Shown here piece after piece: positions 62,801-64,000 of a stretch of DNA of 64,000 nt. A program made the position numbers. Each line of letters begins with the position of its first letter. Positions within the stretch are counted from its first letter, which is position 1. The DNA lies in the NCBI RefSeq assembly GCF_988242995.1, contig NZ_OZ547043.1. One strand, written 5' to 3'.

Positions 62801-64000
62801 TGGCGAGAATTGGCGAACGCTTCTATCGCCCACCCGGACAAACCGCTACCGGCAGTGGACTTGGGCTATCGATTGTCCAGCGAATCGCCAAATTGCATGG
62901 CATGAATGTTGAGTTTGGGAATGCGGAACAAGGTGGATTTGAGGCGAAGGTGAGCTGGTAACTTCTCTGTCTATGAGAGCCGTTAAAACGACTCTCATAG
63001 ATTTTACTATTAGCAAAATATAAACCGTCCCCAAAAAAGCCACCAACCACAAACCAAACAAATAACGAGCGTGAATACATATAGCCAAAACTCGAACATT
63101 TCCCGCATAAAGAGTTTTCTTAAGATAAGAATAATAAGTGGCGTCAGAAGAAAAAATGCTGCAATCATTGCTTGCAATATACGATCTTCGCCTGAAACGG
63201 AAGGTATACTGCAAATATTGTCTCCCGACTCAAGCATCCAGTCATACTTATTGAAAGCAAAAAAAGCATCTATTAACCAATAAGTAAGCATTATATATAA
63301 CAGAGCTTCAAATATTGTTTGAATTTTATGCTTTAACATATGTTAGCACTCTCTAAAAAAAGTCCAGTCGGAGATCTGGTTTTCGATACCCTCCAGTAAA
63401 TCTATTTAAAATAATCTGCGTAACACGCTGATATTTTCATTTTTAGTTATTCAACACCACAATTATCAACTCGCAGAAAGTCCACACCAACGTTGTAAAT
63501 TAACCCTGTGCTAGTTGGAATGATGAGAAATTGCTATCAGTATAGTCATTTTCAGAAAATATTTATCCTGCATCGGTGAGTCAGAGCAAGATCAGACTTT
63601 TGCTAAATTAGCAAAAGACTTTGCACATTTTGCTAATTTCACCGTACCGCTCTGTGACGTACTATAGTCGACAAACGTCTCACCTTGAGGTTAAAAAATG
63701 AGCAACATCCTGATTATCAACGGCGCGAAAAAATTCGCCCACTCCAATGGTCAACTGAACGACACCCTGACCGAAGTCGCGGATGGCACACTGCGCGACC
63801 TCGGGCATGATGTCCGCATCGTTCGCGCCGACAGCGACTACGATGTCAAAGCGGAAGTACAAAACTTTCTCTGGGCTGATGTGGTGATTTGGCAGATGCC
63901 AGGCTGGTGGATGGGCGCGCCGTGGACAGTGAAAAAATACATTGATGATGTATTCACCGAAGGTCACGGGACGCTGTATGCCAGCGATGGTCGTACCCGC

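What the first reader, a model, noticed from the sequence alone, without database searches (positions are those of the whole stretch)
63598..63639. Perfect palindrome plus a third half-site upstream of mdaB
cttttgctaa-a-ttagcaaaag is a perfect 10-bp inverted repeat, followed 10 bp later by ttttgctaattt. The site is ~80 bp upstream of the mdaB ATG, a typical operator layout for a dimeric regulator. I cannot assign the regulator.
Basis: seen in the sequence. Interest (0 to 1): 0.3.

Follow-up and report, generated by a model that had tools for sequence, protein, structure and literature searches.

The report
LysR-type operator upstream of mdaB
The palindrome in front of the E. coli quinone-reductase gene mdaB is most likely the docking site of a LysR-type regulator (YafC, the counterpart of Neisseria CrgA), sitting beside a MarA/SoxS/Rob "marbox"; this gives a poorly characterised E. 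coli regulator a probable target.

Summary
The palindrome is real (63597-63617, 10+1+10, perfect), and so is the nearby TTTTGCTAATTT (63628-63639). The perfect form is a minority allele: 218 of 5,426 E. coli genomes carry it, while K-12 and 4,956 others have one mismatch.

Across 80 Enterobacteriaceae species only the outer arms are conserved, as (A)TTATTGC-N7-GCAAAAGAC with a free 7-bp centre. That is a T-N11-A dyad.

- The dyad centre lies exactly 53 bp before a conserved -10 hexamer in 93 of 93 loci, from E. coli to Acinetobacter-type loci and Neisseria. This puts it at about -65.
- It persists where no qseC lies upstream, so it is not a qseC terminator.
- It matches 14 of 15 positions of the published CrgA footprint in the Neisseria crgA-mdaB region.
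- In one assembly a YafC equivalog is encoded divergently from mdaB, with the dyad between them.
- E. coli YafC is 59% identical to CrgA, and 80% identical in the DNA-binding domain.

Best explanation: this is a YafC/CrgA-type LysR operator. The recognition site is at -65. A second dyad (63620-63636) also fits a class II marbox, which agrees with reported MarA and RamA control of mdaB. Binding in E. coli was not tested. I rate it a new member of a known kind, of moderate interest.

The parts
63597..63617 (+). Dyad 1, the proposed LysR-type recognition-binding site. Window sequence CTTTTGC-TAAATTA-GCAAAAG; family consensus (A)TTATTGC-N7-GCAAAAG(AC). The T-N11-A pair is T63601 and A63613. The centre, 63607, is at about -65.
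   Evidence: Arms are 83-100% conserved and the 7 central bases 42-55% conserved in 83 sequences. The centre lies 53 bp before a -10-like hexamer in 93/93 loci. It matches CrgA footprint site 2 at 14/15 positions. It lies between yafC and mdaB in L091.
63620..63639 (+). Dyad 2 / candidate activation-binding site (TTTGC-ACATTTT-GCTAA, 63620-63636), overlapping a forward class II marbox candidate TTTGCACATTTTGCTAATTT.
   Evidence: One mismatch to TTTGC-N7-GCAAA, 21 bp from dyad 1. 14/20 identical to the mar operon marbox. Nearly invariant in 80 species. Core centre 63630 is at about -42 from the predicted start, inside the published class II range. Listed as a predicted marbox in PMC12052159 S2.
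63660..63665 (+). Predicted -10 hexamer TACTAT of the regulated mdaB promoter (P1).
   Evidence: T 1.0, A 0.94, n, n, A 0.99, T 0.94 across 83 sequences. Fixed 53-bp phasing with dyad 1. There is no good -35, which suits an activator-dependent promoter (sequence).
63672..63673 (+). Predicted P1 transcription start (conserved CA). Inferred, not mapped.
   Evidence: C 0.99 and A 1.0 conserved, 7 nt after the -10. Primer extension failed in Salmonella (PMC2653508).
63631..63645 (+). Possible second, E. coli-specific promoter: extended -10-like TGCTAATTT (63631-63639) with a catalogued start at about 63645.
   Evidence: PMC12052159 S2 Table gives a start site at U00096.2 3170500, which is ATG-53. 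Position 2 of this hexamer is C in about half the species, so it is not conserved.
63687..63700 (+). Shine-Dalgarno GAGG (63687-63690) and mdaB start codon (63698-63700).
   Evidence: Conservation; annotation of the homologous loci.

Best explanation
The palindrome is the recognition-binding site of a LysR-type regulator that controls the mdaB-ygiN promoter. In E. coli the regulator is most probably YafC (b0208), the orthologue of Neisseria meningitidis CrgA.

Two winged-helix domains of one regulator dimer read the arms TTTTGC and GCAAAA, one helical turn apart (T63601-N11-A63613). They do not contact the 7-bp centre. The dyad is centred at about -65 from a promoter that has a conserved -10 (TACTAT, 63660-63665) and no good -35.

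A second, weaker dyad 21 bp downstream (TTTGC-ACATTTT-GCTAA, 63620-63636) would serve as the activation-binding site next to RNA polymerase. By analogy with CrgA, a quinone- or electrophile-related signal would switch the bound regulator to its activating form.

The same downstream stretch reads as a forward class II marbox (TTTGCACATTTTGCTAATTT, about -52 to -33). Through it MarA, SoxS, Rob, and RamA in other genera, would activate mdaB independently.

Shown here: the anatomy, the conservation, the fixed phasing, the match to the CrgA footprint, the gene neighbourhood and the similarity of the DNA-binding domains. Inferred: that YafC binds in E. coli, the position of the transcription start, the role of the second dyad, the inducing signal, and how the two activator classes interact.
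For: 1. Footprint in 83 sequences from 80 species. ATTATTGC (63596-63603) and GCAAAAGACTTTGCACATTTTGC (63611-63633) are 83-100% conserved, while the 7 bases between them are 42-55% conserved. T63601 and A63613 are invariant.
2. The dyad centre lies exactly 53 bp before a -10-like hexamer (A at position 2, T at position 6) in 93/93 loci, including Acinetobacter-type loci and Neisseria.
3. The dyad survives where qseBC is absent and mdaB is divergent from parC (L087-L090), and in Shimwellia (L086, where a different gene precedes mdaB). In those loci the marbox part decays to varying degrees.
4. In L091 a regulator is encoded divergently from mdaB with ATTATTGC-TGTATGA-GCAAAAG between them. It scores 506.8 bits against the NCBIfam YafC equivalog (cut-off 470) and E = 1e-113 against the CrgA structure 3HHG.
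5. The published CrgA DNase footprint in the crgA-mdaB region contains CTTTTGC-GTCAAAT-GAAATAAT. This is the reverse complement of the enterobacterial consensus at 14/15 specified positions. CrgA activates mdaB and represses itself (PMC2724274). A Neisseria contig shows the same orientation relative to mdaB.
6. YafC is 58.9% identical to CrgA overall and 80% over residues 1-65, with an identical stretch ANSAVSR (the likely recognition helix) and an identical stretch LLNRTTRQLSLTEEG (the likely wing). PMC2724274 calls YafC the close E. coli homologue.
7. A perfect TTTTGC-N7-GCAAAA abuts the yafC start codon in E. coli and in Dickeya.
8. Marbox part: 14/20 identity to the verified mar marbox. 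Forward orientation with centre at about -42, inside the published class II range of -36 to -55. mdaB is reported as a mar regulon member (PMC2989944), as MarR/MarA-responsive (PMC6561319), and as 3.2-fold RamA-dependent in Salmonella (PMC3139621).
Against: - No binding or expression experiment links YafC to mdaB in E. coli in any text I could read. YafC ChIP-exo exists (PMC6237786), but its target list is in a supplement that is not held.
- yafC is not next to mdaB in E. coli.
- The yafC-proximal dyad overlaps the Shine-Dalgarno region and is absent in the one Salmonella locus examined, so it is weak evidence for autoregulation.
- The P1 start site is inferred. The only catalogued start sites nearby are at ATG-53 and ATG-101, and primer extension failed in Salmonella.
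- The marbox consensus is not statistically distinctive: 12 hits with up to 2 mismatches in the window against 16.7 expected.
- mdaB is not among the high-quality MarA targets of EcoCyc, and it is not mentioned in the main texts of the MarA-family ChIP-seq papers.
- The Neisseria promoter-proximal site does not align with dyad 2.
Confidence: 0.68

Rival explanations
1. The operator belongs to a different symmetric regulator, either another LysR paralogue or an unrelated helix-turn-helix dimer, and not to YafC.
For: The dyad geometry fits any dimer that reads two successive major grooves. yafC is unlinked to mdaB in E. coli. E. coli has related LysR paralogues (YcaN and YhjC are grouped with YafC in PMC9308461).
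Against: The arms match the footprinted CrgA site. The regulator next to mdaB in L091 passes the YafC equivalog cut-off. The DNA-binding domains of YafC and CrgA are 80% identical.
Confidence: 0.13
2. The whole 44-bp block is a pair of tandem marboxes for MarA/SoxS/Rob, and the palindrome is merely a degenerate marbox readable in both orientations.
For: PMC12052159 S2 lists GCTAAATTCGCAAAA, the palindrome core in K-12, as a predicted marbox. GC at marbox positions 4-5 and GCAAAA at positions 13-18 fit the marbox frame. The two elements are 21 bp apart.
Against: Bases that define a marbox vary freely inside the 7-bp centre: the AC of GCAC, the central W, and the t of 'tg' in the 15-mer definition. 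That screen found 17,730 candidate sites genome-wide. The palindrome persists in taxa where the true marbox part has decayed, and in Neisseria.
Confidence: 0.08
3. The hairpin is the transcription terminator of qseBC, or another RNA or DNA structure, because it lies 3-10 nt after the qseC stop codon in most species.
For: qseC and mdaB are adjacent, 102-115 bp apart, in most of the 80 species. No preB-mdaB co-transcript was detected in Salmonella. The window hairpin folds at -10.4 kcal/mol, z = -2.2. Inner pairs show a modest excess of pairing.
Against: - The scan found no terminator-like site.
- The stem is A+T-rich and no U-tract follows it.
- In other genera folding is no better than in shuffled sequence (z = -0.85 and +0.33).
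- In most species the stem carries an A-A mismatch, and the inner pairs are unpaired in about half of the sequences.
- The element stays with mdaB when ygiZ is inserted, and it persists where the upstream gene is divergent parC.
- It keeps a fixed 53-bp distance to the mdaB -10.
Confidence: 0.03
4. It is the binding site of QseB (PreA), which activates mdaB-ygiN.
For: Overexpressed PreA raised mdaB 7-fold on arrays and 32.5-fold by qRT-PCR in Salmonella, and the authors proposed direct binding (PMC2653508).
Against: Neither the PmrA-type box nor the published QseB consensus occurs in 63540-63700 at up to 2 mismatches (PmrA type) or up to 3 (QseB). The ygiW-qseB region does carry a box with 1 mismatch. 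The element exists in taxa without qseBC next to mdaB. The larger effect in the preAB deletion strain could be read-through from the autoregulated preA promoter (my inference).
Confidence: 0.03

Closest known systems
CrgA operator in the crgA-mdaB intergenic region of Neisseria meningitidis (LysR-type regulator; structure 3HHG; footprint quoted in PMC2724274)
   Same: - Same target gene (mdaB).
- Same dyad: GATTATTTC-N7-GCAAAAG against GATTATTGC-N7-GCAAAAG.
- Same orientation and nearly the same distance to the mdaB ATG (89 against 91 bp).
- A -10-like hexamer 53 bp after the dyad centre.
- An orthologous regulator, 59% identical overall and 80% in the DNA-binding domain.
   Different: - In E. 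coli the regulator gene (yafC) is about 2.9 Mb away, next to dkgB, rather than divergent from mdaB.
- The promoter-proximal site differs in sequence and spacing.
- The E. coli promoter also carries a marbox.
- Binding, inducer and oligomeric state are untested for YafC.
[quoted passage not shown]
   Same: Forward orientation. Core centred at about -42. Poor -35. RE1 GCAC is intact and TTTTGCTAA is identical to the mar operon marbox. mdaB is reported as inducible through Mar and Ram.
   Different: mdaB is not in EcoCyc's list of high-quality MarA sites. The site overlaps a second LysR-type dyad. The start site is not mapped. The consensus match alone is not significant.
Generic LysR-type promoter architecture: recognition site with T-N11-A near -65, plus an activation site near -35
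   Same: T-N11-A dyad, position at about -65, a second weaker dyad two helical turns downstream, and an activator-dependent core promoter.
   Different: The regulator is not encoded divergently in E. coli. The activation site is inferred only.

Membership tests
LysR-type regulator operator (CrgA/YafC type) | Inverted repeat containing the T-N11-A motif | tested here: met
   TGC-N7-GCA; T63601 and A63613 are invariant in 83 sequences.
LysR-type regulator operator (CrgA/YafC type) | Recognition site centred near -65 of the regulated promoter | tested here: met
   The centre lies 53 bp before a conserved -10-like hexamer in 93/93 loci. The transcription start itself is predicted, not mapped.
LysR-type regulator operator (CrgA/YafC type) | Second, weaker site close to the -35 region (activation-binding site) | tested here: inconclusive
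   TTTGC-ACATTTT-GCTAA lies 21 bp downstream with one mismatch to the dyad pattern. It also fits a marbox, and it does not align with CrgA site 1.
LysR-type regulator operator (CrgA/YafC type) | Cognate regulator encoded next to, and divergent from, the target gene | tested here: not met
   In E. coli yafC lies at 229,967-230,881, next to dkgB. The feature is met in L091 and in Neisseria. Adjacency is common in this family but not obligatory.
LysR-type regulator operator (CrgA/YafC type) | Sequence match to an experimentally footprinted site of the orthologous regulator | tested here: met
   14/15 specified positions match CrgA site 2, in the same orientation relative to mdaB.
LysR-type regulator operator (CrgA/YafC type) | Direct binding of the E. 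coli regulator to this DNA | not testable with these tools
   The target list of the YafC ChIP-exo study (PMC6237786) is not held.
Class II marbox (MarA/SoxS/Rob) | Match to AYnGCACnnWnnRYYAAAYn (or gcannwwntgnnaaa) | tested here: inconclusive
   Two mismatches to the 19-mer and one to the 15-mer, but 12 such hits occur in the window against 16.7 expected. 14/20 identity to the mar marbox.
Class II marbox (MarA/SoxS/Rob) | Forward orientation, centred between -36 and -55 | tested here: met
   Centre 63630 is at about -42 from the predicted start.
Class II marbox (MarA/SoxS/Rob) | Activator-dependent expression and direct binding | not testable with these tools
   Expression dependence is reported. 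No binding data were found, and mdaB is absent from the EcoCyc high-quality list.
Intrinsic terminator of qseBC | G+C-rich stem followed directly by a U-tract, downstream of a co-oriented gene | tested here: not met
   No terminator-like site. Weak folding. The element is present where no co-oriented gene precedes it.
QseB/PmrA-type response-regulator box | Direct repeats YTTAAK-N5-YTTAAK, or the QseB consensus | tested here: not met
   No match at up to 2 mismatches (PmrA type) or up to 3 (QseB consensus) in 63540-63700. The positive control in the ygiW-qseB region matches.

The most novel reading that the evidence does not exclude
The mdaB promoter would be a composite switch. One stretch of DNA (63620-63639) would act both as the activation site of the LysR-type regulator YafC and as a class II marbox. 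A quinone- or electrophile-sensing oligomer anchored at -65 and the monomeric stress activators MarA/SoxS/Rob would then compete or cooperate at the same RNA polymerase contact point. YafC would also have a small redox regulon that includes the hydrogenase-2 operon, because the same dyad ATTTTGC-N7-GCAAAAT lies 44 bp upstream of hybO at 38576-38596.
Probability: 0.25. Interest if true: 0.6.

Novelty: new member of a known kind. Interest (0 to 1): 0.45.

Why it matters
- YafC is still described as uncharacterised in texts from 2022-2025. This analysis gives it a specific, testable target and recognition motif (TTTTGC-N7-GCAAAA) by tying it to the CrgA-mdaB system of Neisseria.
- The promoter architecture has been kept base for base in its spacing across at least three bacterial families: Enterobacteriaceae, Acinetobacter-type Moraxellaceae and Neisseriaceae.
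- It offers an explanation for mdaB being under more than one stress circuit: Mar/Sox/Ram control plus a separate quinone-related regulator.
- It reinterprets the reported PreA (QseB) effect on mdaB as probably indirect.

Tried and rejected
- Terminator reading. I checked it with the promoter/terminator scan, RNA folding in five contexts and pair counting on 83 sequences. The structure is weak, and inner pairing is only about 50%.
- QseB/PmrA boxes: none found.
- Statistical value of the marbox consensus: none on its own.
- ygiZ islet flanked by copies of the palindrome. A degenerate TTTTACTATTAGCAAAAT lies at the ygiZ 3' end, but the resemblance is absent from ygiZ loci of other genera, so I dropped the idea.
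- Direct statements on an mdaB marbox, an mdaB start site or YafC targets. Martin & Rosner 2002 and Shi et al. 2016 are not held. The MarA-family ChIP-seq papers do not mention mdaB in their main texts or in the supplement that is held. The Gao 2018 supplement is not held.
- A regulon scan of the whole E. coli genome was not possible with the tools. Only the 64-kb window and the fetched loci were scanned.
- Neisseriaceae bacterium ESL0693 (L094) has neither the regulator next to mdaB nor the dyad.

Full report
**Setting**

The end of the window is the E. coli qseB-qseC-ygiZ-mdaB region. qseC ends at 62961, ygiZ runs from 63339 down to 63010 on the minus strand, and the mdaB ATG is at 63698.

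**The observation**

TTTTGCTAATTT follows at 63628-63639.

Perfect inverted repeats of this size are rare by chance. The window holds 9 (two are nested registers of one hairpin), against a mean of 0.44 in shuffles.

The perfect form is a minority allele. The exact 52-mer is found in 218 of 5,426 complete E. coli genomes, and the K-12 form with C at 63610 in 4,956.

**What is conserved**

I fetched 80 Enterobacteriaceae mdaB loci and aligned their upstream regions.

- ATTATTGC (63596-63603) is 83-100% conserved.
- The next seven bases (63604-63610) are 42-55% conserved.
- GCAAAAGACTTTGCACATTTTGC (63611-63633) is 93-100% conserved, followed by T.ATTT.
- Further on lie a conserved TAnnAT (63660-63665), a conserved CA (63672-63673) and the Shine-Dalgarno GAGG.

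The functional symmetry is therefore TTGC-N7-GCAA, which is TGC-N7-GCA, a T-N11-A dyad. It is not the 10-bp arms.

**Not a qseC terminator**

In most species the qseC stop codon lies 3-10 nt before the left arm, and the qseC-mdaB gap is 102-115 bp. A terminator was therefore worth testing.

- The scan finds no terminator-like site.
- The hairpin is weak: -10.4 kcal/mol with z = -2.2 in the window, and z = -0.85 and +0.33 in two other genera.
- In ygiZ-carrying strains a separate strong hairpin follows qseC, at about 62969-63001 (-20.6 kcal/mol, z = -5.9).
- Whenever ygiZ is inserted, in E. coli, E. whittamii, Citrobacter werkmanii and a Pseudocitrobacter assembly, the insertion lies between the qseC stop and the left arm.
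- In more distant Enterobacterales mdaB has no qseBC upstream. In L087-L090 it is divergent from parC. In Shimwellia (L086) a different gene precedes it. The dyad is still there in all of them, while the downstream block decays to varying degrees.

**Fixed phasing with the promoter**

In 93 of 93 loci that carry the dyad, a -10-like hexamer (A at position 2, T at position 6) starts exactly 53 bp after the dyad centre. The centre-to-ATG distance is 89-98 bp. The set covers E. coli, the 80 species, Shimwellia, the Tenebrionibacter group, Acinetobacter-type loci and a Neisseria contig.

If transcription starts about 7 nt after that hexamer, the dyad is centred at about -65. This is the textbook position of a LysR-type recognition site (general description in PMC2724274).

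In Acinetobacter-type loci both arms change together, from TTGC/GCAA to TTGA/TCAA.

**Assigning the regulator**

- *Gene neighbourhood.* In locus L091 a 303-residue LysR-type gene is divergent from mdaB, and ATTATTGC-TGTATGA-GCAAAAG lies between them.
- *Identity of that regulator.* It passes the NCBIfam YafC equivalog cut-off (506.8 bits against 470). Its best solved relative is CrgA of N. meningitidis (3HHG, E = 1e-113). It is 74.8% identical to E. coli YafC, and, like yafC in E. coli, it is flanked by an aldo-keto reductase gene.
- *What is known about CrgA.* PMC2724274 reports that CrgA activates the divergent mdaB, represses itself, and protects 63 bp of the intergenic region. It also names YafC as the close E. 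coli homologue, at 59% identity.
- *Match to the footprint.* The footprint contains CTTTTGC-GTCAAAT-GAAATAAT. This is the reverse complement of the enterobacterial consensus at 14 of 15 specified positions.
- *Orientation.* A Neisseria contig recovered with that sequence shows that, read towards mdaB, it is GATTATTTC-ATTTGAC-GCAAAAGTG. The orientation is the same as in E. coli, and it lies 89 bp from the ATG.
- *DNA-binding domains.* YafC and the CrgA of that contig are 58.9% identical overall and 80% over residues 1-65. The stretches ANSAVSR (the likely recognition helix) and LLNRTTRQLSLTEEG (the likely wing) are identical.
- *A second copy at yafC.* A perfect TTTTGC-N7-GCAAAA abuts the yafC start codon in E. 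coli and in Dickeya. This could serve autoregulation, but it overlaps the Shine-Dalgarno sequence and is missing in a Salmonella locus.

**The 'third half-site'**

It lies inside 63620-63636, TTTGC-ACATTTT-GCTAA. That stretch is one mismatch from the dyad pattern and 21 bp from dyad 1, as expected of a promoter-proximal LysR site.

The same stretch, TTTGCACATTTTGCTAATTT, also reads as a forward marbox.

- It is 14/20 identical to the mar operon marbox, which I verified in K-12.
- Its core is centred at about -42, inside the class II range of -36 to -55 used in PMC12052159.
- That paper's S2 Table lists both GCACATTTTGCTAAT and the palindrome core GCTAAATTCGCAAAA as predicted marboxes for mdaB.
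- Its S3 Table shows that mdaB is not among EcoCyc's high-quality MarA targets.
- The consensus alone is uninformative: 12 hits against 16.7 expected.
- mdaB is reported as a mar regulon member, as MarR/MarA-responsive and as RamA-dependent in Salmonella.

The near-invariance of this block in the 80 Enterobacteriaceae species, compared with its decay elsewhere, fits a double constraint.

**Other candidates**

The PreA (QseB) activation of mdaB reported in Salmonella has no matching box here. It may be read-through from the autoregulated preA promoter in the deletion strain, which is my inference.

**Open points**

- The P1 start site is inferred.
- The S2 Table of PMC12052159 gives start sites at ATG-53 and ATG-101, about 63645 and 63597 in the window. 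The first fits an extended -10-like TGCTAATTT, which is not conserved between genera.
- YafC ChIP-exo data exist, but I could not read the target list. The YafC-mdaB link may therefore already sit in high-throughput tables.

**Verdict**

The operator idea is supported in substance. The regulator is most probably YafC/CrgA-type, with a marbox alongside. I rate it a new member of a known kind, of moderate interest.

Noticed in passing
window 38576-38596: A second perfect dyad of the same kind, ATTTTGC-CTCAATC-GCAAAAT, lies in what appears to be the hybO-yghW intergenic region (genes identified from ORF sizes and position, not checked against an annotation). Its centre is 44 bp upstream of the start of the 372-aa ORF at 38542, minus strand. 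It was the only other exact TTTGC-N7-GCAAA hit in the window. The surrounding 98 bp are at least 99% identical in 5,361 of 5,426 E. coli genomes. It could be another target of the same regulator, or chance.
   Followed up: partly
window 62962-63596, compared with L002 1496-1502: ygiZ is a presence/absence islet. O157:H7 and many other E. coli lack it, leaving a 109-bp qseC-mdaB gap. About 3,300 of 5,425 genomes align across most of the intergenic query, and that region is only 80-90% identical in 3,019 genomes. ygiZ homologues are inserted at the same point, just before the operator, in C. werkmanii (L017) and a Pseudocitrobacter assembly (L076).
   Followed up: partly
window about 62969-63001: A strong hairpin followed by TTTT (-20.6 kcal/mol, z = -5.9) lies right after qseC. 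It is present only in ygiZ-carrying strains and is probably a bidirectional terminator for qseC and ygiZ that arrived with the islet.
   Followed up: partly
window 63004-63021: A degenerate copy of the palindrome (TTTTACTATTAGCAAAAT) overlaps the ygiZ stop codon: the last ygiZ codons read TTT TGC TAA on the minus strand. It is not seen at ygiZ homologues of other genera, so it is probably coincidental.
   Followed up: yes
L096 2383-2401 (E. coli K-12 yafC start region); L100 1483-1499 (Dickeya): TTTTGC-N7-GCAAAA directly abuts the yafC ATG and encloses its Shine-Dalgarno sequence in both E. coli and Dickeya. It is absent in a Salmonella locus (L099). It may be an autoregulatory site.
   Followed up: partly
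window 60854-60870: A PmrA/QseB-type direct repeat, CTTAAC-AACTT-CTTAAG, lies in the ygiW-qseB intergenic region. I used it as a positive control for the response-regulator box search.
   Followed up: no
window about 63597 and about 63645: Two catalogued transcription start sites (U00096.2 3170452 and 3170500, from PMC12052159 S2) map onto the first base of the palindrome and just after TGCTAATTT. The 'position' column of that table is offset by 10 for upstream sites paired with plus-strand start sites.
   Followed up: partly
L003 1169-1500: In the strain closest to the window (99.7% identity over the intergenic query) ygiZ is annotated as a frameshifted pseudogene. The window itself has an intact 109-codon ORF.
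   Followed up: no
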